A DNA stretch of 64,000 nt from a virus (taxonomy: Duplodnaviria; Caudoviricetes). Each line of letters opens with the position of its first letter. The first letter of the stretch is position 1. The position numbers and the translations under genes were made by a program. Positions 34,167 to 54,112 of the stretch are shown here, piece after piece. The stretch lies in the IMG/VR virus record IMGVR_UViG_3300032303_002003, positions 32,001 through 96,000 of that record; one strand, given 5' to 3'. Under the pieces are notes generated by a model. That model was not told the DNA's origin. It made no database searches and saw only the letters and a program-made list of their open reading frames with translations.

Positions 34167-34174
34167 AAAAATTG

Positions 34175-36845: not shown

Positions 36846-36861
36846 AAACTATAAATATCTT

Positions 36862-37215: not shown

Positions 37216-37216
37216 A

Positions 37217-37396: not shown

Positions 37397-37397
37397 A

Positions 37398-37736: not shown

Positions 37737-37792
37737 AAAATAAAATTAGTAAAAATATTTGATATTACAAACTTTTTTTTGATATTTATAGT

Positions 37793-37925
37793 ATATCTTC
37801 AAAAGAATGTCTTTTGGGATAATATATGAGAAATTGGTTAGTACGAGACGTGATATATCTCAAACCATAAAATTCTAAAATCAATTTATAGAGGAAATCG
37901 GGAGTCATTTGACTCCCATTTTTAT
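37793..37925 (+). ncRNA. candidate small RNA A (contains 14-codon ORF 37826..37870)
   Basis: GATATTTATA upstream, two hairpins, terminator GGGAGTC-ATTT-GACTCCC. Confidence 0.5.
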
Positions 37926-37955
37926 TTTTAGTATGTTTGAACAAAATAAAATACT

Positions 37956-38267
37956 ATGAAAAAAATTATTAAACATTTGACTTATTTTAGTCGTGAAATT
38001 CTAATTGTTTCCTTATCTTTGCTTTTATTCATTAATACCATCACACAAAGTAGTGAGAAAAAACTATATCATCTTCAATCAATTGAAAACAAACAATTAA
38101 GAAAAGAATCAGATAGCTTAAAAATGATTAATGATAGTTTAGTTAGTGATAACATCATTATGGAAATGGAATTATACAGACACGAAATGACGAGACAAGA
38201 AGTATTTTTAAAAAACCCAAAAGTTGGACAAGAATATGAATACTATTTAGGACACTACACAGAATAA
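37956..38267 (+). CDS. membrane-anchored coiled-coil protein
   Basis: N-terminal TM then coiled coil; TATGTTTG upstream. Confidence 0.6.
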   Translation: MKKIIKHLTYFSREILIVSLSLLLFINTITQSSEKKLYHLQSIENKQLRKESDSLKMINDSLVSDNIIMEMELYRHEMTRQEVFLKNPKVGQEYEYYLGHYTE

Positions 38268-38277
38268 AATATAATAT

Positions 38278-38952
38278 ATGAATATCGGACAAGAATTTAC
38301 AAGTTATTACACCAAACATTTGGGTAAAGGTTCTTTGAATTTGCATAACTATGCGGCTCAAATTGAATCATCTATGACACCTTATATCCTTGAAGAACGG
38401 GAAATGAGGGCGACACAAATCGACATCTTCTCTCGTTTAATGAGAGATAGAATTCTATGGGTTGCCGGTCCTGTTGATGATAGAATGTCTACTATTGTTC
38501 AGGCACAACTTATGTTCTTGGATAATACGGATAAAACTGATATTACTATGCATATTGACTCCGGTGGAGGCTCGGTTAAATCAGGTCTTTCTATGGTTGA
38601 TGTGATGAATTACATCGGATGCGATATCAGGACAGTAAACACAGGAATGGCGGCTTCTATGGGTTCAGTATTGCTAGGTGCGGGTACAAAAGGTAAGAGA
38701 AGTTCTTTAAGATTTTCAAGAACGATGCTTCACCAATCATCAGGTGGTTTCCACGGAAATATTCAGGATGCCGAGATTGATATGAAGGAGTGGTACAAAA
38801 TTAACAATACTCTTTTTGAACTTCTTGGTGAATATTGTGGTAAACCCGCAAAACAAGTTATGAAAGATGCCTCAAGGGATTTATGGTTAGATAGTCAGGA
38901 ATCTTTAGATTATGGTATTATTGATGAAATTGTTAAAACAAAAAAGAAGTAA
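38278..38952 (+). CDS. clpP: ATP-dependent Clp protease proteolytic subunit
   Basis: DIFSRLMRDRI, MAASMG (Ser), MLHQ (His), RDLW (Asp). Confidence 0.95.
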   Translation: MNIGQEFTSYYTKHLGKGSLNLHNYAAQIESSMTPYILEEREMRATQIDIFSRLMRDRILWVAGPVDDRMSTIVQAQLMFLDNTDKTDITMHIDSGGGSVKSGLSMVDVMNYIGCDIRTVNTGMAASMGSVLLGAGTKGKRSSLRFSRTMLHQSSGGFHGNIQDAEIDMKEWYKINNTLFELLGEYCGKPAKQVMKDASRDLWLDSQESLDYGIIDEIVKTKKK

Positions 38953-39059
38953 TGAAAAAAAAGGGTGTCTTTCGACACCCTCCTTTTAGATTTTGGAACA
39001 CCCCCTTTTTTTTAAAAATACTCATTTATATCTAGGACTTTTAAATCCGTCGATACTCT

Positions 39060-39722
39060 TTAGTTACCACCTTGTAGTTTGGTAACAATATCTTTAGCAT
39101 TACCTGAAAATTTATCAAATAATGAACAAATAGGACCTGAAATTTTAGCTTCCATATCGTTAATGAAATCTGAACCTGAAATTTTTCCACCTAATGTATT
39201 TCTTATATAATCGTAAATCATACTACCTTTCTCCGCCTCATCTTGCATTTTCATAATTAAACCTTCAGCAAAAGATTCTAAAAGTAATTTAGTCATCTGA
39301 TGACAATCTTGGAATGCGGCAATTAATTTTCTTGGGTCAGTTGTTATAAGTGAGATAACCGTTTTTTTAACAATACCTTGTGATGTGAAACCTATGGCGG
39401 TTAATATTTTATCAACCAATGGTTCAGCAATAGTTTCAATTGCACTCTTACCAAAAACATTACCAAATAATTTTTTCAAAATATCCAAAAAACCAATATC
39501 TTCTGTTATCAATAAATTATTTTGAAGGTATGCAAATTCTCTAAAGAGAGTAAATGCAAGTTTTTCTTGTTTACTCTTAGGTAATTTTTTAAAGTTTTTT
39601 ATGTTATTAACATCTTCAACAATAATCATAATTCTACTTTTGATTATTTGTTGTTCAATTAATAAAGTTTCTTTTTTTTCTTTAGCTTCAACTATTGCTC
39701 TTCTAATATTTTTTTCTAACAT
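39060..39722 (-). CDS. hypothetical helical protein with leader
   Basis: 220 aa, last gene of a late cluster. Confidence 0.65.
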   Translation of the reverse strand: MLEKNIRRAIVEAKEKKETLLIEQQIIKSRIMIIVEDVNNIKNFKKLPKSKQEKLAFTLFREFAYLQNNLLITEDIGFLDILKKLFGNVFGKSAIETIAEPLVDKILTAIGFTSQGIVKKTVISLITTDPRKLIAAFQDCHQMTKLLLESFAEGLIMKMQDEAEKGSMIYDYIRNTLGGKISGSDFINDMEAKISGPICSLFDKFSGNAKDIVTKLQGGN

Positions 39723-39743
39723 AATAATTAATTGTTTTTTCTA

Positions 39744-40856
39744 TTAAGAATAATAATTTTTAGGACATAGTCTCCAAGTATTTGGATTTGTTTTTTTCGT
39801 TTTATTATCTATACAAGGTTGACTAGCGTTAGGTTGTCGCTGCCCTTCATATTCAGTAGTAACACAAGTTAAAACATCAATAATTTTATCATAATTTTTT
39901 TCTCCACTGAATAATCCACCCCAATTATCATAATATTGTCTAACACAACTTTGAGCATTTTTCTTATCTTCAAAATTAGGTGTATCAAATTCACTCTGTT
40001 TAAAATCATCCCAATATGTTTGTATAATATTTTTACATTCTTTTCTATTATACGTGTTAGCCTCTATTCTTTTTCTCGCCTTTAATTGAGTTGCGCCAGC
40101 ATCTTTAACCATTCCGGATTTAGGTCTATACATTGTTAAACCACCTGGAAAAACATTTTCACTATTAGGAATTTTATATGGTACATATTCGTATTGATTA
40201 GTCGCATTCTCTAAATCACCACATAATAACCAAGTGGCGTTTTGTACATCAGCACTTTTAATTTTGTCAACAAAATCTTTTTGTCTTTTATCTAATCCAT
40301 TATATTTTGGACACGCCGAATTTTCACCTCTTTTAGCTCTATAGAATAGTCTTCCTTCAAATTTTGCTTTCTCCCAAGTAATTCCTTCACCACCAGGATT
40401 TAAAATAAGTGGTTTTACACCATTAGCATCTGGAGTATTTGCCTCATCCCAAGTCATCCATCCACCGCCTTGTTCTGTATTTTTTAAATCTGAGATTTTA
40501 GAATTGTTAACACATCTCCACTTAGCCCAATTACCCATACTATCTTTAACTCTAACAGATTTATTATTTTCAAAAGTGCGTACTGAATGTTCCTTATCTA
40601 AATAAAAATAACGATATATAGGAGGACTTGTTTGACCACTCATCTTAACAGCCCATCTAGTCTCTGGAGTATCACCACCACTAACTGGAACTACTTCAGC
40701 TGGTCTTGGAAAACATCCTGTATCTACAAGATTTTGTAACTCTTGTTGTATTGCATCAGTTTGTTCTAAAATAACTCGTTTTCTTGGATTATGCTTATCG
40801 TGCATTTCCAAAATTCTTTTAATTTCATTTGTGTCTACAATATATTTTGCTTTCAT
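39744..40856 (-). CDS. hypothetical protein with class C leader (NEIKRILEMH...VILE)
   Basis: 370 aa, Cys-containing. Confidence 0.7.
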   Translation of the reverse strand: MKAKYIVDTNEIKRILEMHDKHNPRKRVILEQTDAIQQELQNLVDTGCFPRPAEVVPVSGGDTPETRWAVKMSGQTSPPIYRYFYLDKEHSVRTFENNKSVRVKDSMGNWAKWRCVNNSKISDLKNTEQGGGWMTWDEANTPDANGVKPLILNPGGEGITWEKAKFEGRLFYRAKRGENSACPKYNGLDKRQKDFVDKIKSADVQNATWLLCGDLENATNQYEYVPYKIPNSENVFPGGLTMYRPKSGMVKDAGATQLKARKRIEANTYNRKECKNIIQTYWDDFKQSEFDTPNFEDKKNAQSCVRQYYDNWGGLFSGEKNYDKIIDVLTCVTTEYEGQRQPNASQPCIDNKTKKTNPNTWRLCPKNYYS

Positions 40857-40861
40857 AATAA

Positions 40862-41593
40862 TTAATATTCGGCTTCAGCAGCGTTTTCTTCTTCTCCGCT
40901 ACCATAATTTATTTCATCATCTTTTTTAACTGGTTTTGGTTCAATTTTAACAGGAGGTTTTACAGGTGAAGAAGACTTATCTTTAACCAATTCAATCCAA
41001 GTTTTTGGACCAACTACACCATCAGGTGTTAATCCTTTTGAATTTTGAAAATCAATAACCATTTGTTTTGTTCTACCACCAAATACTCCATCAATTGTTC
41101 CGTCTTTACTGAAATTAGGAAATCCGTGTTTTTTAAGATGTTTTTGTATTTCTTTAACAATATCACCCTTAACACATTTTTTGATAAAAGTTCCTGAAAT
41201 AATATCAGCACCTGTTGCAGTCGTTGTTGGACAAGCCGCCGGTGATGGTGATGGATTTGGTCCTGGCGCCGGTGATGGTGGTGGGATTACAGGTGGGTTT
41301 GGTACAGGTGGTGTAGAAGTACAAAATGGTTCAGTTTTTGCCCAATTTAAATCACAACAATATTCTTTGAAAAAATCTTCGGACGTAAGTGGTATTCCGT
41401 CGCTATCCATTATAGGTCTTTTAACATTATTAAAATATAAATATATACCTTTAGAACCCTTACGAGTTTCAAACATATTTAAAAAAGAATCAATGCTGTC
41501 AACTTTTTTATTATTTTCATCAAATAAATAAATATTTTTTTCGTCGACTATCGACATATAAGTTTTATAAAGTATTTTTCGTTTTTTTAACAT
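40862..41593 (-). CDS. peptidoglycan-binding domain protein
   Basis: GDIVKEIQKHL...DGVFGGRTKQMVIDFQ...GLTPDGVVGPKTW. Confidence 0.8.
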   Translation of the reverse strand: MLKKRKILYKTYMSIVDEKNIYLFDENNKKVDSIDSFLNMFETRKGSKGIYLYFNNVKRPIMDSDGIPLTSEDFFKEYCCDLNWAKTEPFCTSTPPVPNPPVIPPPSPAPGPNPSPSPAACPTTTATGADIISGTFIKKCVKGDIVKEIQKHLKKHGFPNFSKDGTIDGVFGGRTKQMVIDFQNSKGLTPDGVVGPKTWIELVKDKSSSPVKPPVKIEPKPVKKDDEINYGSGEEENAAEAEY

Positions 41594-41601
41594 TTTTATA
41601 A

Positions 41602-42696
41602 TTATTTTTCATAAATAGGATTCCCATCAACATCATATCCTATAATTTTTTTATCATCTTTCTTTTCTTCGGGTTTAGTCTCATCAGGGTTAGTTTCATC
41701 ATCCTTTTTATCTTTGCCTGAATCATCGAAGAGTTTTTTATCCGCGGCAGAACAAAAAGTTTTCAAGATTGGTTTATCACAAATAGTGGTAAATAATCCA
41801 TAAGCTATATATCCGCCAAATAAAGTTGCTCCAATTTTAATTGCCGCCCATAAATTTCCTGGTGTAATATTTTTTTTAGAACCTTCCCAAAAACTTTTCC
41901 ACCACTTTATTTTCCTTTGTACTATTGGGTCGGTAGTTTTTTCAATTGCGGTCAATGCATCTTCTAATTTTTTACCAAATATTTCTAATGCATTCTGTGC
42001 TTGCACTTTTTCTAGTTTTGATAAATTTGTAAATTTATTTTCGGCATCTTTAGCAGCGGTATTTAAAATTTTTATTTCTTCTTCTGTAAACATTTTTTCT
42101 TGGCTAGGTGTCAATTTGAAGTAAGCAATTGCTTCTGCATTTAAAGTAGATGTTGTTGGTCCAACAATTGGAGACGATTTTACATTCGGTTCCCATTTTT
42201 CCCAAAAAATTCTATTTTCATCTGATACCAAACCATATTTTTCCGCGGTTCTAACTATTCTATTATGGTCTTTTGTTGCATTCCATAAATTTTCAAAATC
42301 AGAATAATTAGATGCCGCACTTTTACTTACAATTCCATCCGCAATTTCTTGGAATATTTGTTTATCTTTTGATAAAATGGCATCAAAAAGAATTCTTGTT
42401 GCAGATGCATCTTTAACCAAGTTATCAACTAAATTTTCAGCACTCTGAGTTGCCCCTTGGGTAACTTCTTCACCGATTTTTTCAAATTTACTTAAAGCAC
42501 TTGCATCTGTTGAAATTGATTTCTCAATCGCTTCTAATGAAGCCCTGTCTAACGCCTTTGTACCTGAAATTCCAAATCTTTCAAGAACTTTTTCAATTCC
42601 TTCAATAACTCCAGGTGTTCCTAAAGCTTCATTAAGTAATTTTAAACCAATAATTTCTCTGAATCTATTTATCTCAGATAATATTTCTTTCTTCAT
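41602..42696 (-). CDS. hypothetical protein with class B leader and C-proximal TM segment
   Basis: MKKEILSEINRFREIIGLKLLNE; LWAAIKIGATLFGGYIAYGLF. Confidence 0.7.
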   Translation of the reverse strand: MKKEILSEINRFREIIGLKLLNEALGTPGVIEGIEKVLERFGISGTKALDRASLEAIEKSISTDASALSKFEKIGEEVTQGATQSAENLVDNLVKDASATRILFDAILSKDKQIFQEIADGIVSKSAASNYSDFENLWNATKDHNRIVRTAEKYGLVSDENRIFWEKWEPNVKSSPIVGPTTSTLNAEAIAYFKLTPSQEKMFTEEEIKILNTAAKDAENKFTNLSKLEKVQAQNALEIFGKKLEDALTAIEKTTDPIVQRKIKWWKSFWEGSKKNITPGNLWAAIKIGATLFGGYIAYGLFTTICDKPILKTFCSAADKKLFDDSGKDKKDDETNPDETKPEEKKDDKKIIGYDVDGNPIYEK

Positions 42697-42740
42697 AATA
42701 TTTTTATTTATAAATATATTTAATATATAAAAAATTTATT

Positions 42741-45470
42741 TTATTCTGTTTTTTTAATGTTTTGACCATTTTCAGAATCTTCCATATCATTATAATATTT
42801 TAAAACTTCTTCATTATTTCCATTATAAAACCACGTACCAATTGGAGGATTAGAAGAGTTTATAATTTTTATAAAATCATCTTCTGTATAGTTTATTTGT
42901 TTTTTTGTTTGTTTATCTGTGAAAGTAATATATTTTTCTTTCTTTTTTTGTCCTGCAATCGCCTCTTGAATCTCCTTATTAATTTCATCTCTAACTTGTT
43001 GGGCCTTTTCTTTGGGTATTGTTGTAACAGTATAACCTTCTATAAGTTTTGCCTTTTCTTTTATAATAAAATCTTTTTTTCCTTTAATGACATCAGAAGA
43101 TAAAACTGCTTTTTGTTCATTGGATAAACTAACATTTAATGCAATTTGTTCCAAATAAATTCTCATAATCAATTGTTGATTTGGACTCAAATTATTCATG
43201 TAAGTTTTGGCGGCTCTTTTTTCTTGTTCAGTTTCTATACAATTCTTACAAAATTGGTTGATAAATTCAACAGTTTTGTCATGTAAATCTTCAATAGTTT
43301 TCATTACTTTAAAATCAGTATATATGGTTGCCCCAAATTTGACAATTCCCGGAATTTTTCTAACTTTAGATGTTTTTTCAGCAAAATTTTCAAGGTTTGA
43401 AAAAACATTTTTAAAATCGTTTTCACTTAAAGACATGCTTTTTCTAAAAATTAAAGATTCTTCTTTTGTTAAAAATCCTGAGGCCAAAAATTGTTCCATT
43501 TGTTTAGGAGTATTTAATAATCCTTCATTTAATGAGCTAATTTTTTCTGCAAGACTTTTTGTAACATCAACTGTTAATTCTTCCGCCTTAAATATATTTG
43601 CAACCTTACCATATATCTTATGTATTTGTGGTAAACAAGCAAAGAAAAATGACAATGCAGCCTCTTTAGTATCTCCTTTGGCAAGTTGATAAGTTCCAAC
43701 ACTAACATTCATTATGATATCTGCAGCTGTTGCAGCACCAACTAACCAAGGTGCAGCACCGCCCATAGTACAAATAGTTGTAATTGTTGCAATCCCTAAC
43801 TGAGCCCATATTAACCATTCATCAATAAAATAATCAAAAGCATTTCTATTATCATATCCATAATTTTGAATTGTGCCACTAACCATAGCTTTTAACTTAT
43901 TATATTCATCTTTTTGCTCATCAGTTAAATAATTATAAACAAATTCCATCACAGTACCATTTGATGTACCATCCATATCAAAATTTGTAACCTCAAACTG
44001 ATGTGACTCTTCAAATTCTTTTAATTTTTGTTTCGCAGTACTTAATTCTTGTTTAAATTTAATTTTTAATTCCGGACAAATACCTGTTGGAAATTTTTCA
44101 TCATAATATTTGTTGATTAAATTAGTTATTTGAACTCTACAATTATTACTTGGTGTTTTTGACTCTTCTTTTGTTGCGGCAATTTGAACGGAACTAGGTA
44201 ATGTAGATGGTCTAGGAAATTTATTGGAAATTATTTTTCCTGACTCATCAAGAAAATATTTATCCCATTCTTTGCTATAAGCACAACTCAAATCCAATGG
44301 ATTTGTAATTATTTCATATAATTCAGTTAAAAAATCTTCATAACAAAAAGGACTAAATCCTTTTGGGGTCGTTATTTCTAAATTAGGAGTTAATCTTTGT
44401 TCAAATTTTTCTCCTGCAATTCTCATATGCTGCTCTACTCTGTTTTCTAAATTTGCCTTATTTACACTACATCTCAACTGACCTTCACTAGTTGTTATTA
44501 GTAAATTATAATCAAATTGATTTCCGTCATCAATTAACGATGGACTACCACCACCATAATATCTATTATTTTTTACTTTTTCATATAAACTTTTAAGATT
44601 TATTAATCTTGACATATCAACCTTTACAATAACATATCCTGTATAATTTGGAGGAATTTCTTTACTTGTAAATTCAAAATCAGTTACTTCATCCATCCAC
44701 TCTTGAGCGTTTTTTTGACCTAAATAATCACTCTGATACGATGTCGCATATATTTCAACTTTTTCTATTTTTAAAGGTCTATCAGTGTTGTTATTACTTA
44801 TTTCATAGGTTATTGTAGTTGCTTTTGGAAAATTTTGATACCCAAATTCTATTGGTTTATCTTTACTTATTTTAACACTAACTAACCCCGTGTTATCTTT
44901 TGGGTCATCGGTCTTCCAATTATATGGAGTTTGAGGTCTTTCACCTTTGTATAACACATTTTTTGTTCCTTCTCCACTTGAATTATAAACATAATAACCT
45001 TTAAAATAATAACCATTAAATTTATCTTTAGGGTCTCCTCCTTTTTTTTGGGTTATATAGGCTCTCATTTCATCACCATTTTCTTTTTCAAATGAAGAAA
45101 CTGAGGGGATATTTAAAAACTCTTGAAACAATTCTTTATTCCACAACTGGCCAGTTGAACCTGTAAATTTACTACCATCATTTGCAACCCAATTTGAAGG
45201 GTCTGCTGTTGTGTCAAAAATATCTGTTATTATTATATTTGAAGGTGCGTATAACGAAAATTTACCGTCTGGTGATTTTATTCTATTATTTTGATAAACT
45301 TGTTTAATTTCATCCGTACTATATTTAGGAGAAGTTGGGAATGATTGTGGGGCCTCAATAATTAAACTTTTTTTATTTTCTGTTAAAGTTTTTTTTGTGT
45401 CATAATTCATTAATAACTTCATTCTATGAAGTAATTCATTTGTTTCTTGAATTGTAAAATTTTTCTTCAT
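42741..45470 (-). CDS. large protein with class B leader, Ig-like segment and hydrophobic hairpin
   Basis: 909 aa; YEISN....PLKIEKV...EIPP..TG.V.V; WAQLGIATITTICTMGGAAPWLVGAATAAD. Confidence 0.65.
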   Translation of the reverse strand: MKKNFTIQETNELLHRMKLLMNYDTKKTLTENKKSLIIEAPQSFPTSPKYSTDEIKQVYQNNRIKSPDGKFSLYAPSNIIITDIFDTTADPSNWVANDGSKFTGSTGQLWNKELFQEFLNIPSVSSFEKENGDEMRAYITQKKGGDPKDKFNGYYFKGYYVYNSSGEGTKNVLYKGERPQTPYNWKTDDPKDNTGLVSVKISKDKPIEFGYQNFPKATTITYEISNNNTDRPLKIEKVEIYATSYQSDYLGQKNAQEWMDEVTDFEFTSKEIPPNYTGYVIVKVDMSRLINLKSLYEKVKNNRYYGGGSPSLIDDGNQFDYNLLITTSEGQLRCSVNKANLENRVEQHMRIAGEKFEQRLTPNLEITTPKGFSPFCYEDFLTELYEIITNPLDLSCAYSKEWDKYFLDESGKIISNKFPRPSTLPSSVQIAATKEESKTPSNNCRVQITNLINKYYDEKFPTGICPELKIKFKQELSTAKQKLKEFEESHQFEVTNFDMDGTSNGTVMEFVYNYLTDEQKDEYNKLKAMVSGTIQNYGYDNRNAFDYFIDEWLIWAQLGIATITTICTMGGAAPWLVGAATAADIIMNVSVGTYQLAKGDTKEAALSFFFACLPQIHKIYGKVANIFKAEELTVDVTKSLAEKISSLNEGLLNTPKQMEQFLASGFLTKEESLIFRKSMSLSENDFKNVFSNLENFAEKTSKVRKIPGIVKFGATIYTDFKVMKTIEDLHDKTVEFINQFCKNCIETEQEKRAAKTYMNNLSPNQQLIMRIYLEQIALNVSLSNEQKAVLSSDVIKGKKDFIIKEKAKLIEGYTVTTIPKEKAQQVRDEINKEIQEAIAGQKKKEKYITFTDKQTKKQINYTEDDFIKIINSSNPPIGTWFYNGNNEEVLKYYNDMEDSENGQNIKKTE

Positions 45471-45473
45471 TGA

Positions 45474-45728
45474 TTACCAAGTTTGATTTGCAACACCTCT
45501 TTTAACACCAGTGTTCCATACTTCACCTTTTTTACCTAACATATTAGCCTTACTTCTTGCAGGTCCCCCAACAATATCCGCCCATTGTGGCATTGCCTTT
45601 CCACCACCACCTGATGGTGATGAGGAACTACTAGCACCTGCGGTCTCCTGTTCAGTAAATTCTTCTTTACTTTCGGATTTTGTATTATTTTTATAAAATT
45701 TGATTAAAAAATCTACGTCTAAATTCAT
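45474..45728 (-). CDS. hypothetical late protein
   Basis: 84 aa, R..AN repeats, TATTTAT upstream. Confidence 0.6.
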   Translation of the reverse strand: MNLDVDFLIKFYKNNTKSESKEEFTEQETAGASSSSSPSGGGGKAMPQWADIVGGPARSKANMLGKKGEVWNTGVKRGVANQTW

Positions 45729-45740
45729 AACTTATAAATA

Positions 45741-46037
45741 TCAGTAAAATTCGGATTTCGGTATTGATTTAGAATTTATTGTATAATACTCATTTAAGAA
45801 AGATATTAGTATGTCTTCATCTAATTCAGTTTCATCTGTGGTAGGTTCATCTTCGTCATCATCCTCAAAAAAATCAAATGATTCTGTCTCTAATTCATAT
45901 CCGTATTCTTCTGCTAATGTGTAGTCAATTTGGTCGTTTCTTAAAACATCCTCGTTATCATCTATTGTTCTGAAACTTACTTCTAATATATTTGAATCTG
46001 TATTGAGGAAGTAAGATATTATTTCTTTAATTTCCAT
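45741..46037 (-). CDS. hypothetical acidic protein
   Basis: ATG start MEIKE preferred. Confidence 0.6.
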   Translation of the reverse strand: MEIKEIISYFLNTDSNILEVSFRTIDDNEDVLRNDQIDYTLAEEYGYELETESFDFFEDDDEDEPTTDETELDEDILISFLNEYYTINSKSIPKSEFY

Positions 46038-46123
46038 ATGGTTTGTTTTATAAAGAAATATCACAAAATATATGAAAATCTACATTTGCATAAAAAAACC
46101 CTCCGTTTTGGAGGGTTAATTTT

Positions 46124-46894
46124 TTAATTATATCTATTCATTCGGTTGAACATCTCATTTATCTTTGTTTTTTGTGTGATAAATGATTCTTTAATATCTT
46201 CATCAATTTCTTCCCAATCAATATCTTCAACATCACCCATTTTTCTTTTCATTCTTTTTGGTGCTGTGTCTCTTTCTCCGTAATCTACTAAATCATAAAA
46301 TTTATCGCTATAATCTGTAAAATCATCATAATCATTTGTATCATAAAAACCTTCTTCCATTTCTTGCTCATTACGAGTATATGGTCCTTGAGCTTGATTA
46401 GGCCCATCAGATTTAAAATCATACGCCTCAAAATCAATATCAGAATATAATGGACTTGGTCCTGAAATTTCATCTAACTCATCAGAAAATGCAGATTCCA
46501 TTTGTTCGTATTCAACTTCTTCGTCTGTGTAATCAAATTTATTTTTTGATTTATTAAATGGTTTTGCAACATCATAAATCCCTTCTTCTTCCATATCTTC
46601 TTCCATATATCCTCTTCCACATTCCATACATTCTCCTTCCATTAATGGTGAACCGCATTCAGAACATACTTCTTTTGATTCTTTCATATAAATTTTATTG
46701 TTATATGAACTAACTTCGCCTGAACCATTAACGGTAATGCCTTCTTTATCATTTGCAAAATCTTGAACATAAAGTGGTTGTTCGTTTTGAACTTCGTTCT
46801 GCATTCTTTTGTATCCGTTATAAACTTCTCTGTGTTTACCTAAAATGTCTGACTTCTCATCATTTGATAATTGTCCTAAAGTATAAAATCTCAT
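46124..46894 (-). CDS. acidic protein with class C leader and zinc ribbon
   Basis: LSNDEKSDILGKH leader; CSECG...CMECG. Confidence 0.65.
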   Translation of the reverse strand: MRFYTLGQLSNDEKSDILGKHREVYNGYKRMQNEVQNEQPLYVQDFANDKEGITVNGSGEVSSYNNKIYMKESKEVCSECGSPLMEGECMECGRGYMEEDMEEEGIYDVAKPFNKSKNKFDYTDEEVEYEQMESAFSDELDEISGPSPLYSDIDFEAYDFKSDGPNQAQGPYTRNEQEMEEGFYDTNDYDDFTDYSDKFYDLVDYGERDTAPKRMKRKMGDVEDIDWEEIDEDIKESFITQKTKINEMFNRMNRYN

Positions 46895-46971
46895 AATATA
46901 TTATTTTATAATAAATACATTCTTATTTGAGAAATTATTGATTATTGATTTTATTTCTTTTATCTTTGTGG

Positions 46972-47050
46972 AAACAAGTTGAATTCTTTTTTTTCTGATA
47001 GTTTATTGGTAGTTTACTAGAGAACTAATTTGAATTCACTTGTTTTTTTT
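46972..47050 (+). ncRNA. candidate small RNA or attenuator hairpin
   Basis: Directly after TATCTTTG; AAACAAGTTGAATTC pairs with GAATTCACTTGTTT, then T-run. Confidence 0.45.
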
Positions 47051-47079
47051 AAACATTAACAAAACAACAAAAAATAATT

Positions 47080-47316: not shown

Positions 47317-47498
47317 TGCCGAACTTTGAAAAAATATTGAATGAGAATATCTCTCACAGTATGATTCTTGATAGAGATGGGATTTTAAAGGCTCTCAAAA
47401 TTTCATATGAAATTGGTAAAGTAGAGGCTTTAGAATCCCTCCTTTCTTTTGATATTTCCGCAGAATTAAAAGAAAAAATAATTAAGGAATTATATTAG
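47316..47498 (+). CDS. hypothetical protein
   Basis: 60 aa ORF with coupled stop/start. Confidence 0.55.
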   Translation: MPNFEKILNENISHSMILDRDGILKALKISYEIGKVEALESLLSFDISAELKEKIIKELY

Positions 47499-48082: not shown

Positions 48083-48115
48083 AACAATAAATATTATAAT
48101 TATATTTATATAAAT

Positions 48116-48736
48116 ATGAACTTTTTAATAACAGAAACACAATTAAAATTTTTAGTTGAAGGAATTTCAAGTCCAAGGGTTGTTGAATATTTGAGAAAGA
48201 TGAATTCATTCACAAATAGAATGGTTAATAAGGTTGGGAAAAAATACGGACTTAATTTAAGATTATTAACTACTTGGGGTCCTGCAGTTGGAGGACTTGT
48301 TATGCCACTTGATAATTTTATTAGAACGGGTGAATTTAATTTGGATGATAATCAAATTGCATTAATATTATGTGGAGCGGCTGCCACATTATTTTTTGAT
48401 AATAAACCTTTAATGAGGGAATTGGTTAAAAAAATTAAAGAAGAGGGTATTGAGGACGCTTTTAAAGCGGTTTTACGTAAAGGAAAGGATTTGAAATATG
48501 CTTTTACAACATTTATTGAATCTTTAAATGTTACAATCAATAGTGCATCTGAAATATTATCTTACGCATTTTTATTACCAATTATTCCTGATATTCAAAG
48601 TATGATTGCAAGAAGTGCTGACTTAACTAAAACGGCAACTTTAATTGGTGAAAGAATGGGTGCTTCGGGTTTGATTTTGATTAGTTCTGCGGCCCTTATA
48701 TCAATATTGAATAAAATATTAAAAAGATTATCTTAA
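48116..48736 (+). CDS. hydrophobic protein with leader MNFLITETQLKFLVE
   Basis: 206 aa; TATTTAT upstream. Confidence 0.65.
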   Translation: MNFLITETQLKFLVEGISSPRVVEYLRKMNSFTNRMVNKVGKKYGLNLRLLTTWGPAVGGLVMPLDNFIRTGEFNLDDNQIALILCGAAATLFFDNKPLMRELVKKIKEEGIEDAFKAVLRKGKDLKYAFTTFIESLNVTINSASEILSYAFLLPIIPDIQSMIARSADLTKTATLIGERMGASGLILISSAALISILNKILKRLS

Positions 48737-49728
48737 TTTCCAAAATTGGCAATTTTCTTTTTTAACTTATCAATATGTTTTTGCTTTAATCTGTGATTTT
48801 TTTTATTTTTTCTAAACCATTCATCCATCACAGATTCCAAACTTCTTTTTTCGGCTCTTGCTCTTCTCATAAATCCGTTGTATTGAGCTTCTAATTCGTG
48901 ATGTTGAGTATAATAATCATAAGGTTTTTCTGGGTCTTCAGGAAATTCATAACCTCTTTCGTGTTGAATCATATGTGTTAATTCGTGAGTAAGGGTTTCA
49001 TTTAATTCGCCTGTTAAATCTTGTAGGTATTCTCTACCTTCATTTGGATTGATTGTTATTGTAATTTTAATAATATCTTCATCTCTATAATAATCTGCGT
49101 CCAATTCATATCCCGAAATAGATTCATCTTCAATAATATTTAATTCGACTGAAAATTCTGTATCTAATTGCGTAAAACTATATAACATATCCTCACCACT
49201 TACATCTTCGGGTAAGGAAAATTCTCCTTCTTGTCCAAACTTTAAAAATTGTATAATATCTGCGGTTATTTTTCTAACAACGCTGTCTAATTTACCTTCA
49301 ACAATTAAATTTTCGTTCATAGTTTCTTGTTCAGGGTACAAATTTACGACTTTATTGCAAAATACCAAATAATCTTGTCCCCAATATTGTAAAAAATTTT
49401 CTAAAATTACATCAACATCATTAGATAATCTCAAATAAAAAGTGGAATTATTCATAGAACTCGGATTGTTAATAACTTTTTCACCAGGTATTAGATTTTT
49501 CATAACTTTATCAGTATCCGCATCTCCCGATGGAACTATGTAGATTGTATACATAAGATATTTAACATATTCCCCCCTCCTAATTAAACTCCTAAAATCT
49601 GTTAATTCAATTTTGATTGTTATTGGATAAAAATTATCAATTAAAGGATAATTAACACTAAATGTGTGAGTTTTAAGGAATTTATTAACTCTTGCCAATA
49701 ACTTATCTTGTGAAAATTCATTTTCCAT
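48733..49728 (-). CDS. protein with C-terminal HExxH metallopeptidase-like domain
   Basis: LTHELTHMIQ...ELEA. Confidence 0.6.
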   Translation of the reverse strand: MENEFSQDKLLARVNKFLKTHTFSVNYPLIDNFYPITIKIELTDFRSLIRRGEYVKYLMYTIYIVPSGDADTDKVMKNLIPGEKVINNPSSMNNSTFYLRLSNDVDVILENFLQYWGQDYLVFCNKVVNLYPEQETMNENLIVEGKLDSVVRKITADIIQFLKFGQEGEFSLPEDVSGEDMLYSFTQLDTEFSVELNIIEDESISGYELDADYYRDEDIIKITITINPNEGREYLQDLTGELNETLTHELTHMIQHERGYEFPEDPEKPYDYYTQHHELEAQYNGFMRRARAEKRSLESVMDEWFRKNKKNHRLKQKHIDKLKKKIANFGN

Positions 49729-49811
49729 ATCACTATAAATACCGAAAAAATAATAAGTGTTTTAGTTGATTGAGATTTTTAATTTTCTTACTTTTTTAAA
49801 AAATATATTGT

Positions 49812-50900
49812 ATGTCGAGAATAGATGAACTAAAAAAACAACACCCACAATTTAACATAAATTATTTTGATATTTTCAGGAGATTGGATATTTCAAAATC
49901 AGGTAAATATATGCCAGTAATATCACATATGGTTAATGAATCATTAAAAAAAAGGGTTGAGCACAGAAGTGAGTTAGATTCTGTAAAATCAAGATGTGAT
50001 GAATATGGATTTGATTATAAGGGACTTAATGAATATGAAATTATTGTTTCATATCTCATATTAGATTATGTTACTTCAAGAGATTGGGATATTATGAAAG
50101 AATTTATGGAGTATATGGAAAGAGGGGTTATTGATAATAAGGATGTTTTAACATATAAAAATATGGAAGATGTTAGAGCGGCAGTATCATCATCAACCTT
50201 AAAATTATATTCAAAAGAACTTCAAAATCAAATTCATAAAGAGTATGAAGATGAAACTTGGATTGCGGTTAGGCCACTTTCATTTGAAGCGTCTATGAAA
50301 TACGGAGCATCAACCAAATGGTGCACCACATACAAAAAAGAAAAAGAATATTTTGCAAAATATTTTTCAAGAGGTGTATTAGTTTATTTTATCAATAAAA
50401 TTACAGGTTATAAATTCGCATTATATAGTGAAGTTTATGAAGAAAATAACGATATTTCATTTTGGAATGCAGAAGACAGTAGAGTTGATTTTTTACAATT
50501 AGATATTGATTCATATCTATTACCAATTATTAGAAATTTAGCAACTTGTAAGATAAAGAATAGTGAGATGTTGCATCCTGATGATTTAGATAAAGTTTTA
50601 GTTGATTGTCAATATTTTATATACAAAAGCAGTTTGGTGGAAGGAATAGATTTGGCAGAAGGGCCTATTCAACCGGTGGCGGGTATTACTATGAGATATG
50701 CCAATAATGCTAATAATACTCTAACAATTAATCATCCCCCTTATCCTGATGATTACGAATATGAGGAGGTTGTTGGAGACGTTGAAGTATCGACGGCAAC
50801 TCTTATACGACCAGCAGGTGATTACATAGTATACGGTAACCCAAATCAATTTAGAATAACAAGGACAGACGATGGTGAAGTTCAATTAACAAGTGCATAA
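49812..50900 (+). CDS. hypothetical protein, ASMKYG.STKWCT family
   Basis: Shares a motif with 29802..31265. Confidence 0.7.
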   Translation: MSRIDELKKQHPQFNINYFDIFRRLDISKSGKYMPVISHMVNESLKKRVEHRSELDSVKSRCDEYGFDYKGLNEYEIIVSYLILDYVTSRDWDIMKEFMEYMERGVIDNKDVLTYKNMEDVRAAVSSSTLKLYSKELQNQIHKEYEDETWIAVRPLSFEASMKYGASTKWCTTYKKEKEYFAKYFSRGVLVYFINKITGYKFALYSEVYEENNDISFWNAEDSRVDFLQLDIDSYLLPIIRNLATCKIKNSEMLHPDDLDKVLVDCQYFIYKSSLVEGIDLAEGPIQPVAGITMRYANNANNTLTINHPPYPDDYEYEEVVGDVEVSTATLIRPAGDYIVYGNPNQFRITRTDDGEVQLTSA

Positions 50901-50929
50901 GTTTTAATTTTACCAGATATTTATTTCAT

Positions 50930-51697
50930 ATGCAAAATCTGCAAGAGCTATACGACAAATACCAAGTAACGGAAAAAAACATATCAACAGGTAATTTATC
51001 CCGACTTGAAAAAACAATAACTGAATTAGATAAGTTAGATAAGGTGTTATTACTCGCCTGTTCCAACAGATATAATTGGAATAAGGATGACGTTGATATA
51101 CCAAAATCAACAATTCTCGCTATGATAATTCAGGAAGCTCTTGGAGATAAAGCAACTCTAATAGATGTTCCTGAATTAACCATTCACCCTTGTGAAGGAA
51201 ATGTTTCAAGAAAAGATGGTAACTCCTGTGGATTGAAAAAAGCGTTACTTAAAGATGATAAAAAAAATCCATCGGGATTTCACAGATGTTGGGCTAGTCT
51301 TAATAATAGCGATGACGAACTTTGGAGAATTTCAAAAGAATTATTTGAATCAAACGCAGTTATATTTTTTACTTCCGTAAGATGGGGACAAGCAAGTATG
51401 TTCTACCAAAAACTTATTGAGAGATTAACTTGGATTGAAAATAGACACGACACTCTTGGTGAATCAAATATAATTAAAGATATTGAAAGTGGTTTTATCT
51501 GTACAGGACAAAACTGGCACGGGTTAGATGTTGTTGAAACTCAAAGAAAAGTTCATTCTTTTTATGGTTTCAAACCTAACGATAAGTTTTATTGGAATTG
51601 GCAATACACAAGTAAAGTTACTGATGAAACACAAACATCTTACAAAGATTCATTTGGCGCTTTCGCCAAAAAGTTTGGATTGGATAAGTTATATTAA
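50930..51697 (+). CDS. flavodoxin-fold protein (NADPH-dependent FMN reductase / iron-sulfur flavoprotein-like)
   Basis: VLLLACSNR, IHPCEG, AVIFFTSVRWG, KLIERL. Confidence 0.7.
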   Translation: MQNLQELYDKYQVTEKNISTGNLSRLEKTITELDKLDKVLLLACSNRYNWNKDDVDIPKSTILAMIIQEALGDKATLIDVPELTIHPCEGNVSRKDGNSCGLKKALLKDDKKNPSGFHRCWASLNNSDDELWRISKELFESNAVIFFTSVRWGQASMFYQKLIERLTWIENRHDTLGESNIIKDIESGFICTGQNWHGLDVVETQRKVHSFYGFKPNDKFYWNWQYTSKVTDETQTSYKDSFGAFAKKFGLDKLY

Positions 51698-51707
51698 GCC
51701 AACGAAT

Positions 51708-52100
51708 TTACCACGCCCTACAGCTCCAAAATTTTGGTTTCCAACGAGGTCCTGGATTTTGGCAGTTATGTCTTGCTCTAAATGACTTTCTTCTTGCAGG
51801 ATTGTTCTTTTTAATAGTCATTCTTTTTCCGTGTGCTGATTTACCACCAAACCCGAAATTAACTTTGACTACATTTCCTTTGTCGTTCTTAACATACACT
51901 TTCGATTTTTTAACATCGCCCTGCATAACCTTACCTAACTGAACTTTTCTACCCCTATATTCCGCTTCATTCAAATTATTATCATCGGCAATAAAATCTG
52001 TTATTTCCACAGAACCATATTCATCTTCATAGATGATATTTTCTCTTTCTTTAATTATATTATTTAACGCTTCTCTAATAATAAACTTTAAATTCTCCAT
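51708..52100 (-). CDS. basic protein (ARRKSFRARHNC...FWSC..W module) behind an acidic leader
   Basis: 130 aa; NLNE precedes the basic module; TATTTAT upstream. Confidence 0.7.
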   Translation of the reverse strand: MENLKFIIREALNNIIKERENIIYEDEYGSVEITDFIADDNNLNEAEYRGRKVQLGKVMQGDVKKSKVYVKNDKGNVVKVNFGFGGKSAHGKRMTIKKNNPARRKSFRARHNCQNPGPRWKPKFWSCRAW

Positions 52101-52140
52101 ATAGTGTATTTTCTAAATAAATACTTCTATATTTCACAAT

Positions 52141-52338
52141 ATGAAATCATTTTTAGTATTATTAGTTTTAATTGGTAAACTTTATTTAGGTGCAAGAATA
52201 ATGTGGTGGGTTTTTTTAAAATTCACAACACCAGAATTACACAATTTTAACGAAATTGATGTTTATGTCGTTCTTTTGATTTTTGACATATGGATTGGAG
52301 GTCAATCTGTGGAAATTGAGAAAATAAAAGAAAATTAG
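52141..52338 (+). CDS. small membrane protein
   Basis: 65 aa, two hydrophobic segments, upstream of endolysin. Confidence 0.5.
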   Translation: MKSFLVLLVLIGKLYLGARIMWWVFLKFTTPELHNFNEIDVYVVLLIFDIWIGGQSVEIEKIKEN

Positions 52339-52395
52339 TATCTCCTTTTAATAACTTAAATACTTATAGTTAAATAAACACACAATTATAATAAA

Positions 52396-53211
52396 ATGTT
52401 ATTAAAAAAAGGCTCACAAGGAGAAGAAGTTAAAAAAATTCAACAAAAGTTGGGTTTGGTTGCCGATGGAATATTTGGTTCAGGCACCGAACAGGCTGTA
52501 AAAACCTGGCAATCACAACACGGATTGATAAACGATGGTGTTATTGGAACTAACACTTGGGATAAGATGTTTCCAAAAGTAATTGGTGAACCGGCACCCG
52601 CTCCTGTGTCGTCAGGTTCATTAAAATTTGAAAGTTTAAGAGATTATATTCCCGCAAATGTATTGGCACAAATTCCCGATACAATTACAAAATTTGGAAT
52701 TAACACACCTTTAAGACTTGCACACTTTTTATCACAATGCGCTCACGAATCAGGTAAATTTAAGGTTGCAGAGGAAAATCTTAACTATTCTGCAGATGGA
52801 TTAAAGAAAATTTTCACAAAATATTTTCCGGGTAATTTGGCAGAATCTTATGCAAGACAACCTGAAAAAATCGCTTCAAGAGTTTATGGTGCTAGAATGG
52901 GTAATGGCGATGAAACAACAAAAGAAGGCTATAAATTCCGTGGAAGAGGGTATATCCAATTAACTGGTAAAGATAATTATAAATCATTTGGGCAATCTAT
53001 AAATGAGGATATTATTTCTAATCCGGATTTAGTTGCCTCAAAATATCCATTACTTTCAGCCGCTTGGTTCTTCCAAAGATGTTTAACAAAATGTGATGTA
53101 GGTGCAACTAGAGATGGTGTTATTGCGGTAACTAAATGTGTAAATGGAGGAACTAATGGGTTAAATGAACGTATTGAATATTTTAACCAATTTTATAAAT
53201 TACTATCTTAA
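52396..53211 (+). CDS. endolysin: peptidoglycan-binding domain plus GH19 domain
   Basis: ADGIFG.GT; LAHFLSQCAHESG, FRGRGYIQLTG.DNY, VNGGTNGL.ER. Confidence 0.92.
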   Translation: MLLKKGSQGEEVKKIQQKLGLVADGIFGSGTEQAVKTWQSQHGLINDGVIGTNTWDKMFPKVIGEPAPAPVSSGSLKFESLRDYIPANVLAQIPDTITKFGINTPLRLAHFLSQCAHESGKFKVAEENLNYSADGLKKIFTKYFPGNLAESYARQPEKIASRVYGARMGNGDETTKEGYKFRGRGYIQLTGKDNYKSFGQSINEDIISNPDLVASKYPLLSAAWFFQRCLTKCDVGATRDGVIAVTKCVNGGTNGLNERIEYFNQFYKLLS

Positions 53212-53248
53212 AGTCCAATCAAAACTGCCTTCTCATATATTTATTGTT

Positions 53249-53965
53249 ATGAATTACAAAAAAATATATGATGACTTAATGTCTACAAGAATTCTCTTAA
53301 AACCGCAACGAATCAAACAGAAAAGTTGTGGTTTTTATTTTGAGGGACATCACATAATACCTAAATGGATGGGCGGTTCGGGAAATAGTAATAGACCAAA
53401 AAATAATCCTAATATTGTTCTTTTAACCGCAAGGGAACATTTTTTATCTCATTGGTTATTATGGAGAATATATAGGAATAGACCATCTTCTTTAGCATTT
53501 CATAGAATGATTTCTCGCAACGGAAATCAAACTCGAATTACATCTTCCAGAGGATATGAAGAGGCTAGAGAATCTTACAGAATTACAAACTTGGGTAACA
53601 AATACGGGTTGGATAAAAAAAGGATAGTCTCAGAAGAGCAAAAGAAAAAACAATCAGAAATGATGAAAGGTAAGTATGATGGTGAAAAAAACCCTTTTTT
53701 TGGTAAAAAACACAACGACATTACTAAAGAAAAAATAAGAAAAAGTAGAGTTGATAAAAAAAAGGATAAAATTTGGAATTATTTTGGGAAAAGAATCTTA
53801 TTAAAAAATAATTTAGTTGTTGGAATATTTGAAACATCTGATGAAATTGCTGATTTCATAGGATGTAGTAAGGGTAATGTTCGTCACGTTTTATCAGGAA
53901 ATCAAAAAACTGCAAAGGGATATGTTATTAAATACTTAAAAGAATATTACGATTTATTGAAGTAA
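53249..53965 (+). CDS. HNH homing endonuclease with NUMOD3-like repeats
   Basis: MNYKKIYDDL...EGHHIIPK.MGG.....NIV.LTAREHF..H; NPFFGKKH; start corrected. Confidence 0.85.
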   Translation: MNYKKIYDDLMSTRILLKPQRIKQKSCGFYFEGHHIIPKWMGGSGNSNRPKNNPNIVLLTAREHFLSHWLLWRIYRNRPSSLAFHRMISRNGNQTRITSSRGYEEARESYRITNLGNKYGLDKKRIVSEEQKKKQSEMMKGKYDGEKNPFFGKKHNDITKEKIRKSRVDKKKDKIWNYFGKRILLKNNLVVGIFETSDEIADFIGCSKGNVRHVLSGNQKTAKGYVIKYLKEYYDLLK

Positions 53966-54002
53966 AAACTTGATTTTATAAAAAAAATGTGATATTTATT
54001 TC

Positions 54003-54084
54003 TTACATCACTCCTTTTTGAGAGTGTCTCATATATCAATCCTAAAAGACTCGCAAAAATAATTTTGACGAGTCTTTTTTTTTT
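54003..54084 (+). ncRNA. candidate small RNA B
   Basis: GATATTTATT upstream, CACTC/GAGTG hairpin, terminator GACTCG...CGAGTC plus long T-run, no ORF. Confidence 0.5.
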
Positions 54085-54112
54085 ATTATCTTTGTTGTAA
54101 AATAAATGTTAT

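What the first reader, a model, noticed from the sequence alone, without database searches (positions are those of the whole stretch)
37781..54084. Two small late RNAs 16 kb apart are complementary over a micro-ORF start
Seen: unit A (37793-37925) and unit B (54003-54084) are both on the + strand, each between GATATTTAT and a terminator. A 37809-37831 GTCTTTTGGGATAATATATGAGA pairs with B 54027-54050 TCTCATATATCAATCCTAAAAGAC as 12 bp (one G:U), a small internal loop, then 10 bp. The paired zone covers the ATG of MRNWLVRDVIYLKP* (37826..37870) and is partly hidden in hairpins in each RNA. Inference: a trans-encoded antisense switch (type I toxin-antitoxin-like) or a two-piece RNA formed by strand exchange.
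Basis: partly seen in the sequence, partly recalled or inferred. Interest (0 to 1): 0.8.

Follow-up and report, generated by a model that had tools for sequence, protein, structure and literature searches.

The report
Conserved complementary small-RNA pair in giant phages
Two tiny stand-alone transcription units of an uncultured giant lake phage can base-pair, both belong to conserved families that stay complementary in every related phage holding both, so they are probably a working RNA regulator and its RNA target, although neither RNA has been seen.

Summary
A 37809-37831 and B 54027-54050 pair as 12 bp (one G:U), a 1x2 loop and 10 bp. Each lies between GATATTTAT and a hairpin plus T-run.

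In this genome alone the match is only suggestive. B is A's best antisense partner (-27.9 against -22.7 kcal/mol for the next of 8858 windows). The BLAST score is marginal, and 7 of 200 shuffled B's fold with A as well.

Relatives decide it. A and B are each conserved, unannotated families in bS21-encoding giant phages, absent from Rfam. Of 39 related records, 22 hold both. In all 22 they share a strand, lie 14-36 kb apart, and keep A's GUCUUUUGG...AUGAGAA complementary to B's UUCUCAU...CCAAAAGAC. All 8 records with B only have lost at least one block.

B looks like a classic trans-acting sRNA: 5' hairpin, open seed, terminator. A is, in most relatives, a leaderless micro-mRNA of about 33 codons.

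No RNA evidence could be obtained. This scan has already reported similar pairs in related phages. I found no paper describing them.

The parts
37759..37789 (+). Promoter-like element of unit A: TTGATA, 16 nt, GATATTTAT
   Evidence: TATTTAT precedes every A unit in relatives. Function is inferred.
37796..37925 (+). Unit A transcript (5' end inferred), member of a conserved family
   Evidence: Model R1 matches 22 of 83 sources at E <= 5e-12 and 28 of 39 whole records. No Rfam match.
37807..37878 (+). Small ORF in the family-conserved frame (MSFGIIYEKLVSTRRDISQTIKF)
   Evidence: 18 of 25 distinct A units have an in-frame ATG; in 13 it lies 3-7 nt after TATTTAT. Consensus M(M)ID....CLLGT...YEN....RRGKSRTINYC.
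37809..37820 (+). Block 1 of A (GTCTTTTGGGAT); pairs with B 54039-54050; 3' arm of A's 5' hairpin
   Evidence: CTTTTGG invariant in 13 of 13; mean unpaired probability 0.29.
37822..37831 (+). Block 2 of A (ATATATGAGA); pairs with B 54027-54036; the more open block
   Evidence: ATGAGA invariant in 13 of 13; mean unpaired probability 0.64.
37845..37861 (+). Conserved GAGA/TCTC hairpin of A
   Evidence: RNAalifold consensus. Most changes are on one side only; only the outermost of its 5 pairs shows two-sided changes.
37900..37924 (+). Intrinsic terminator of A
37932..37939 (+). TATGTTTG box (TAnnTTTG type) before gene 37956-38267; a TTGACT lies inside the terminator
   Evidence: The promoter role, and calling the box Bacteroidota-type, rest on recall.
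53970..53999 (+). Promoter-like element of unit B: TTGATT, 15 nt, GATATTTAT
54006..54084 (+). Unit B transcript (5' end inferred), member of a conserved family
   Evidence: Model R2 matches 31 of 39 records (one, G017, is false on inspection). No ATG anywhere in the unit. No Rfam match.
54009..54026 (+). 5' hairpin of B (CACTC/GAGTG)
   Evidence: 5 pairs; A-U/G-U change in 6 of 21.
54027..54036 (+). Block 2 of B (TCTCATATAT), the open seed
   Evidence: mean unpaired probability 0.96.
54039..54050 (+). Block 1 of B (ATCCTAAAAGAC); its 3' part is the base of the terminator stem
   Evidence: mean unpaired probability 0.42.
54044..54085 (+). Intrinsic terminator of B with T10
54087..54094 (+). TATCTTTG box before gene 54113-55003; TTGACG lies inside the terminator
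   Evidence: Promoter role inferred.

Best explanation
A and B are two conserved, separately transcribed phage RNAs that act on each other by base pairing.

B (about 80 nt) has the build of a trans-acting antisense sRNA: a 5' hairpin, an open seed of about 27 nt (GUUCUCAUAUAUCCCUUUUCCAAAAGAC in most relatives) and an intrinsic terminator.

A (about 130-150 nt) is its target. In most relatives A is a leaderless micro-mRNA of about 30-36 codons that ends in its own terminator.

Inferred order of events:
1. The open block 2 of each RNA (A AUAUGAGAA with B UUCUCAUAU) nucleates the contact.
2. Block 1 (A GUCUUUUGG with B CCAAAAGAC) then forms by strand exchange. This opens A's 5' hairpin and the base of B's terminator stem.

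In the window's lineage A's linker has shrunk, so the two helices merge into 12+10 bp that cover the start codon (37807) and the first eight codons of the small ORF.

Expected outcome (inferred, not shown): the small ORF is not translated and/or the duplex is cleaved, so the two RNAs titrate each other. What the module controls downstream is unknown.
For: - Both units are conserved families with the same layout: TATTTAT, RNA, terminator, TAnnTTTG box, next gene.
- Of 39 related records, 22 hold both units. In all 22 they are on the same strand, with B 13.7-36.1 kb downstream of A.
- The 14 distinct A/B pairs give duplexes of -25.3 to -28.4 kcal/mol through the same two blocks.
- The paired zone holds 13 of A's 26 invariant columns in 22 positions (Fisher p 5e-6).
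- Synonymous sites of the small ORF are frozen in the blocks. Identical codons among identical residues are 295 of 296 in block 1 and 225 of 247 in block 2. The figure is 936 of 1748 in the neighbouring protease gene, counted over 5 loci, while the block counts are over 14 ORFs.
- Variable positions keep pairing in the RNA sense: A's G/A lies opposite B's U, and B's C-to-U change lies opposite A's G. All three transitions give G:U, none A:C.
- In the window's lineage one A-U pair became U-A by changes on both sides.
- The 8 records with B only have all lost at least one block. One of them, G010, is a complete genome in which A is absent by four searches.
- A and B are reciprocal best antisense hits in this genome.
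- Block 2 is open in both RNAs and block 1 is structured in both.
Against:
- Within one genome the statistics are modest.
- In G001 and G004, B is only the 2nd and 3rd best non-self hit of A's core.
- The blocks are nearly invariant, so true two-sided covariation amounts to one event.
- The link between loss of A and loss of B's blocks is confounded by relatedness (perhaps 2-3 lineages), and 7 of the 8 B-only records are fragments.
- The first B set was fished with a pattern that contains block 2, so its invariance there is by construction. The model search is free of this.
- 7 of 25 distinct A units lack the small ORF, so 'micro-mRNA' does not hold for all.
- In most relatives the pairing lies at about codons 9-12 and 17-19, too far from the start codon for a simple block of initiation.
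- B persists without A, so B must have another role as well.
Confidence: 0.6

Rival explanations
1. The roles are reversed. B is the regulator of other (phage or host) messages, and A is a decoy (anti-sRNA or sponge) that copies B's real target site, a start region of the type UAUGAGAAC. A soaks B up, or destabilises it by invading its terminator stem.
For: - B is more widespread and more conserved than A, and exists without A.
- B's seed holds CAU, the complement of a start codon, and A's invariant AUGAGAA looks like a start site with no conserved ORF behind it in that frame.
- In the B-only genomes G010 and G007 a 70-aa gene 2 kb from B starts with UAUGAGAAC.
- A's block 1 pairs with the base of B's terminator. 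The review PMC12197685 (passages read) says this of AsxR on FnrS.
Against: - No second target stands out in this genome. After A, the best hit of B's seed lies antisense to a gene, at -26.1.
- The homologue of the 70-aa gene in this window starts differently.
- A 9-mer is expected about 2.5 times per genome by chance.
- A has a conserved 3' domain and a small ORF that a pure decoy would not need.
Confidence: 0.17
2. A acts on B while B is being transcribed. A pairs first with the open block 2 and then with the 5' arm of B's terminator. This prevents termination and lets transcripts from B's TATTTAT promoter run into the gene downstream (trans-RNA antitermination). A mirror version is that B stalls ribosomes on A's leader ORF and changes read-through at A's terminator.
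For: - Block 1 of B is the base of the terminator's 5' arm in all members.
- The downstream gene is always co-oriented.
- A has the layout small ORF, then terminator, then gene. A possible antiterminator (UCGAACC with GGGUCGA) has 70% of cells paired and a covariation score reached by 15 of 500 shuffles.
Against: - The genes after B differ among relatives and seem to have a promoter box of their own.
- The candidate antiterminator has a mismatch in its middle in 11 of 13 sequences.
- From recall, no natural trans-sRNA is known to defeat an intrinsic terminator.
- Both RNAs use the same promoter type.
Confidence: 0.1
3. The shared motif works as double-stranded DNA: the same protein-binding site placed in opposite orientation downstream of two promoters. 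Or it is an inverted duplicate kept for reasons other than RNA pairing.
For: - Both blocks are nearly invariant at the DNA level, including silent codon positions.
- Both lie 20-60 bp downstream of a TATTTAT element.
Against: - The spacer between the two blocks varies from 7 to 15 nt in A while being nearly fixed in B.
- The distance from the promoter varies from about 19 to 50 nt in A.
- All three transitions seen are G:U in the transcribed sense.
- The motif occurs only at these two places in the genome.
- Both copies sit inside units bounded by terminators.
Confidence: 0.07
4. Chance or neutral resemblance: two independently conserved elements that happen to be complementary.
For: AT-rich genome; many inverted repeats; marginal BLAST score.
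Against: - Complementarity is kept in 22 of 22 records.
- Loss of the blocks tracks loss of A.
- The pairing coincides with A's invariant columns.
- A and B are reciprocal best hits.
Confidence: 0.05

Closest known systems
c4 antisense RNA of phages P1/P7 acting on the ant message
   Same: A phage-encoded RNA of about 77 nt that acts in trans through short complementary stretches presented by its fold, on a phage message around a start site (review PMC12197685, passages read). That the pairing is two-part is my recollection.
   Different: From recall, c4 is cut from the same operon it controls and governs immunity of a temperate phage. Here both RNAs are stand-alone units 14-36 kb apart in a giant, apparently lytic phage. 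No Rfam family, C4 included, appears among the matches up to E = 10.
Prophage anti-sRNAs AgvB and AsxR of enterohaemorrhagic E. coli
   Same: Small phage RNAs whose partner is another small RNA. AgvB mimics the target site. AsxR binds the terminator stem-loop of FnrS (PMC12197685, passages). Here A's block 1 pairs with the base of B's terminator.
   Different: Those act on host sRNAs and depend on Hfq. Here both partners are phage-encoded. From recall, Bacteroidota hosts lack Hfq. No sequence relation.
Kissing-then-extension antisense pairs of plasmids (CopA/CopT of R1, RNA I/RNA II of ColE1)
   Same: Open nucleation site followed by helix propagation into structured parts (recalled knowledge).
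   Different: Those are cis-encoded, fully complementary and loop-loop initiated. Here the partners are trans-encoded, in two blocks, with linear single-stranded nucleation.
Complementary small-RNA pairs reported earlier by this scan in bS21-encoding giant lake phages (e1-5904473, e1-5378054, e1-6010966, e1-6045869)
   Same: TATTTAT-preceded, about 100-nt, ORF-poor units tens of kb apart that stay complementary across relatives. The phage here also encodes bS21.
   Different: Those notes describe opposite strands and a ribosome-docking (SD) decoy. Here the units share a strand in 22 of 22 records. The SD-like stretch of B (GGAGUGUUC against the 16S tail) is unexceptional: 5% of genome windows do as well, and it is weak in this window at -8.5. 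I could not compare the sequences.
Type I toxin-antitoxin systems
   Same: A small ORF whose start is covered by an antisense RNA (in this window only).
   Different: The peptide is not hydrophobic. In relatives the pairing lies inside the ORF.

Membership tests
Trans-encoded base-pairing sRNA (for B) | Stand-alone unit with its own promoter and an intrinsic terminator, and no ORF | tested here: met
   TATTTAT motif, hairpin plus T-run, no ATG in the unit. The promoter is a motif only.
Trans-encoded base-pairing sRNA (for B) | Conserved single-stranded seed | tested here: met
   Block 2 has unpaired probability 0.96 over 21 members. It is conserved in the model-found members that co-occur with A.
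Trans-encoded base-pairing sRNA (for B) | Complementarity to the target kept across genomes | tested here: met
   22 of 22 records with both units; 14 distinct pairs at -25.3 to -28.4 kcal/mol.
Trans-encoded base-pairing sRNA (for B) | The RNA is made and changes the fate of the target | not testable with these tools
Type I toxin-antitoxin | Conserved small hydrophobic toxin ORF | tested here: not met
The conserved-frame peptide is polar and basic (by inspection, no predictor run).
Type I toxin-antitoxin | Antisense RNA covers the toxin's start region | tested here: inconclusive
   True in the window (ATG 37807 and ATG 37826 both lie in the paired zone). In most relatives the blocks lie about 25 and 50 nt inside the ORF.
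Type I toxin-antitoxin | The peptide is toxic when expressed | not testable with these tools
   Needs an experiment.
Anti-sRNA / RNA sponge (for A) | Copies the site of a genuine mRNA target of the sRNA | tested here: inconclusive
   No second target was found in this genome. One candidate gene start exists in G010/G007 only.
Leader-peptide transcription attenuator (for A) | Short ORF followed by a terminator, with a mutually exclusive antiterminator | tested here: inconclusive
   ORF in 18 of 25 units. Candidate antiterminator: 70% of cells paired, covariation score reached by 15 of 500 shuffles, central mismatch.
Rfam families (C4 and all others) | Match to a curated covariance model | tested here: not met
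   Nothing at gathering score apart from tmRNA and tRNA. Only chance-level matches at E up to 10.
CRISPR-type dual RNA or Cas12f/TnpB guide RNA | An effector protein encoded nearby or in the genome | tested here: not met
   PF07282 is absent from G000 and four complete relatives; the control rang in 8 of 14 genomes. Cas9/IscB were not searched.

The most novel reading that the evidence does not exclude
The pair is a timing or threshold switch of giant bS21-encoding phages of Bacteroidota, built entirely of RNA. B controls ribosome passage on a leaderless leader ORF (A), and through it read-through of A's terminator into the head-assembly genes. This would be a trans-sRNA-controlled attenuator, in hosts whose ribosomes ignore Shine-Dalgarno sequences.
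Probability: 0.1. Interest if true: 0.8.

Novelty: new variant of a known kind. Interest (0 to 1): 0.55.

Why it matters
Very few phage-encoded regulatory RNAs are known, and almost all come from temperate phages of enterobacteria. Here two undescribed RNA families are conserved and kept complementary across dozens of uncultured giant lake phages, which are predicted to infect Bacteroidota (PMC9723584, passages).

From recall, these hosts lack Hfq and do not use Shine-Dalgarno pairing. If the pair is real, it gives a compact, testable example of RNA-RNA control in such phages. It also shows that their short 'empty' intergenic units are genes.

Tried and rejected
- Rfam at gathering score and at E up to 10 found nothing for A or B.
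- DNA search of the phage collection with the A region found only distant coding matches.
- A first full-length duplex scan timed out. It was redone with a 31-nt core.
- Regex and pattern searches for a B-like partner found none in G002, G003 and G005, which are fragments.
- The second-best hit of A's core, near tRNA-Glu (34183-34124, minus strand), showed nothing related on inspection.
- Complement of A's 3' motif (GTTTATGGTT): no convincing site.
- RNA-guided effector idea (lead from PMC13472631, abstract read): no Cas12f/TnpB domain.
- The A-model match to the reverse complement of B in G029/G030 rests on the two blocks and the AT-rich flanks only. It is not a paralogue.
- Bacterial and archaeal genomes scanned with GTCTTTTGGN{0,12}ATATGAGAAC: 29 stretches, all unrelated coding or chance matches.
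- SD-decoy / 16S-tail reading from earlier notes. B's GGAGUGUUC pairs with a Flavobacteriaceae 16S tail at -8.5 to -14.4 kcal/mol, but 5% of genome windows reach -12. The tail-like 5' arm is not conserved.
- The start of the 70-aa gene as a B target: not kept in this window.
- A partner for the divergent B's near the protease of B-only records: none.
- Sequencing runs: one RNA run holds 14% of the sampled words of 37000-46999.
- Literature: four full-text searches and a term search inside PMC9723584 (0 occurrences of noncoding, non-coding, promoter, intergenic) gave no description of these RNAs. Supplements were closed and could hold transcript maps.

Full report
**What is there**

The window is part of a 132.9-kb, 30% G+C virus record. 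It carries a tmRNA, a tRNA-Glu, a prohead protease at 38278-38952 and a gene for ribosomal protein bS21. Its relatives include four complete genomes of 317-326 kb.

Unit A (about 37796-37925) and unit B (about 54006-84) are on the plus strand. Each follows GATATTTAT, and each ends in a G+C hairpin with a T-run. The simple terminator scan missed B's hairpin because its loop is long.

GATATTTAT occurs 10 times in the window against 2.9 expected and 21 times in the genome. In most cases it lies in front of a start codon, commonly 5 or 16 nt before the ATG. So it behaves as a promoter element. Its timing ('late') is untested.

The pairing is real: 12 bp with one G:U, a 1x2 loop, then 10 bp, at -27.9 to -28.4 kcal/mol.

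**Chance, within this genome**

B is the best non-self antisense hit of A's 31-nt core among 8858 windows (next -22.7; mean -10.0, sd 2.7). A is the best non-self hit of B's seed among 10630 windows (next -26.1).

The evidence against is real too:
- The BLAST score of 14 sits just above several chance 13s.
- The window has 1210 inverted pairs of at least 18 nt, and this pair is not among the 25 longest.
- When the full RNAs must first unfold, the net gain is -13.9 kcal/mol. That is reached by 7 of 200 shuffles of B and 0 of 200 shuffles of A.

Alone, this would be suggestive only.

**Relatives settle it**

A search with the protease found 599 or more related stretches, of which 80 loci were kept.

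Unit A is a conserved family. Thirteen distinct copies align, with CTTTTGG and ATGAGA invariant. A covariance model finds it in 22 of 83 sources and in 28 of 39 long records.

While scanning whole contigs of relatives with A's core, a second match turned up in G001 and G004. It has B's architecture. A pattern scan then listed 80 loci, of which about 51 are B units by my reading (43 with both blocks, 8 variants); the other 29 are chance matches.

Twenty-one distinct B's align to TATTTAT, about 10 nt, a CACUC/GAGUG hairpin, GUUCUCAUAUAUCCCUUUUCCAAAAGAC, and a terminator whose 5' arm begins inside that stretch. This first set was fished with a pattern that contains block 2, so its invariance there is by construction.

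The model search, which is free of that bias, finds B in 31 of 39 records. One of these, G017, is a false weak hit.

The tally over the 39 records is: 22 with both units, 8 with B only, 6 with A only, 3 with neither. In all 22 with both, the two units are on the same strand and B lies 13.7-36.1 kb downstream of A. The 14 distinct pairs all form the same two helices, at -25.3 to -28.4 kcal/mol. In G001 and G004, however, B ranks only 2nd and 3rd among the non-self hits of a longer A query.

**Signs that the constraint is RNA pairing**

- Thirteen of A's 26 invariant columns fall in the 22 paired positions (p 5e-6).
- Where positions vary, pairing in the transcribed sense is kept. A's G or A lies opposite B's U. 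B's C-to-U change in the G021 group lies opposite A's G. The window's own G:U fits as well. That is three transitions, all G:U and none A:C. Three cases give little power.
- In the window's lineage, A's A became U and B's U became A at the same pair. A's linker shrank to 8 nt, so the helices nearly merge.
- The spacer between the blocks is 15 nt in most A units but 7-14 nt in several, while B's is nearly fixed. That fits an internal loop better than a DNA site.
- All 8 B-only records have lost at least one block. G007, G010 and G015 keep UUCUCAUAUAU but have UUUAAGAC or UACAAGAC in place of CCAAAAGAC.
- G010 is a complete genome and lacks A by the model and by three patterns.

The caveat on the last two points: the other 7 B-only records are fragments, and the 8 probably represent only 2-3 lineages.

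**What A is**

Earlier first-reader notes on related DNA (e1-6150451, e1-5943223) called an A-like unit a 'leader ORF plus terminator', so I tested coding.

In the frame of TAT GAG AAC, 18 of 25 distinct units have an in-frame ATG. In 13 it lies 3-7 nt after TATTTAT, which implies a leaderless message. The peptide is about 30-36 residues, M(M)ID....CLLGT...YEN....RRGKSRTINYC. The window's version is shorter (37807-37878) and starts at a new ATG inside the paired zone. Seven units have no such ORF.

It ends after 3-14 codons in relatives.

Silent positions are almost frozen in the blocks. Identical codons among identical residues are 295 of 296 and 225 of 247 there, against 936 of 1748 in the protease gene. 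So the RNA-level constraint is there whether or not the peptide matters.

RNAalifold supports only a small GAGA/UCUC hairpin and the terminator. A candidate antiterminator is weakly supported.

**What B is**

B has no ATG. It has a 5' hairpin and a seed that is 96% unpaired in the block 2 part. Block 1 is 42% unpaired, because it forms the base of the terminator. This is the usual build of a trans-acting sRNA. In A, block 2 is the more open block (0.64) and block 1 is mostly inside a 5' hairpin (0.29). That gives a plausible order: nucleation at block 2, then strand exchange at block 1.

**Mechanism**

I commit to B as an antisense regulator of the A transcript, blocking translation of the small ORF and/or causing mutual destruction. 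The steps are inferred from anatomy only.

Rivals are set out in their own section:
- A is a decoy for B.
- Trans antitermination, or control of an attenuator.
- A DNA-level site.
- Chance.

The genes after B differ among relatives, which argues against B being the leader of one particular gene.

**Comparison with what is known, and novelty**

Neither family is in Rfam. The exact two-block pattern was found in none of the bacterial or archaeal species genomes scanned.

The closest known systems are:
- c4 RNA of P1/P7, and the prophage anti-sRNAs AgvB/AsxR (review PMC12197685, passages read).
- Kissing antisense pairs of plasmids (recalled).

The paper on bS21-encoding lake phages (PMC9723584) predicts Bacteroidetes hosts. 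It reports transcription of bS21 together with structural genes. It does not contain the words noncoding, non-coding, promoter or intergenic (passages and term counts). I did not show that this phage belongs to those clades.

This scan has already reported similar complementary pairs in related phages. So the phenomenon is not new to the scan, though I found it in no paper.

**Limits**

- No experiment.
- Covariation is thin because both sides are nearly invariant.

Noticed in passing
window 53165-53965: The gene just upstream of B is a homing endonuclease (phrog_655, E 5e-37). It overlaps the end of the endolysin gene 52396-53211. In the two closest relatives the sequence upstream of B differs from base 53962 leftwards, so this may be a recent insertion.
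   Followed up: partly
window 12412-12597: Phage-encoded ribosomal protein bS21 (PF01165, 40 bits). It is also present in four complete relatives.
   Followed up: partly
window 37909-37939 and 54065-54094: In both units the terminator's loop and 3' arm hold TTGAC(T/G), and 16-17 nt later comes a TAnnTTTG-type box just before the next gene. The terminator and the next promoter-like element therefore overlap. The same is seen in relatives.
   Followed up: partly
window 54020-54031 and B units of relatives: B's GGAGUGUUC can pair with the 3' tail of a Flavobacteriaceae 16S rRNA (GGAACACCUCC, with one bulged C), at -12 to -14 kcal/mol in most relatives and -8.5 here. 5% of genome windows do as well.
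   Followed up: yes
L296 (G010) and L293 (G007), about 2 kb from B on the other strand: A conserved 70-aa gene starts with UAUGAGAAC right after a TAnnTTTG box. That makes 11 nt complementary to B's block 2, in two genomes that lack A. The homologue in this window (61794-62012, minus strand) starts differently.
   Followed up: partly
whole genome, e.g. window 36851-36859(-), 45734-45742(-), 50916-50924: GATATTTAT often lies either 5 nt or 16 nt before the ATG. The 5-nt class implies leaderless messages.
   Followed up: no
loci L132, L165, L184, L190, L169, L175, L146: Between B and the next larger gene, relatives carry different tiny ORFs: a 27-aa membrane-like peptide and a 40-aa peptide. In L146 the 40-aa peptide is fused to the following 211-aa protein.
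   Followed up: no
window 28751-29144 and 34174-34246(-): Phage-encoded tmRNA (78 bits) and tRNA-Glu.
   Followed up: no
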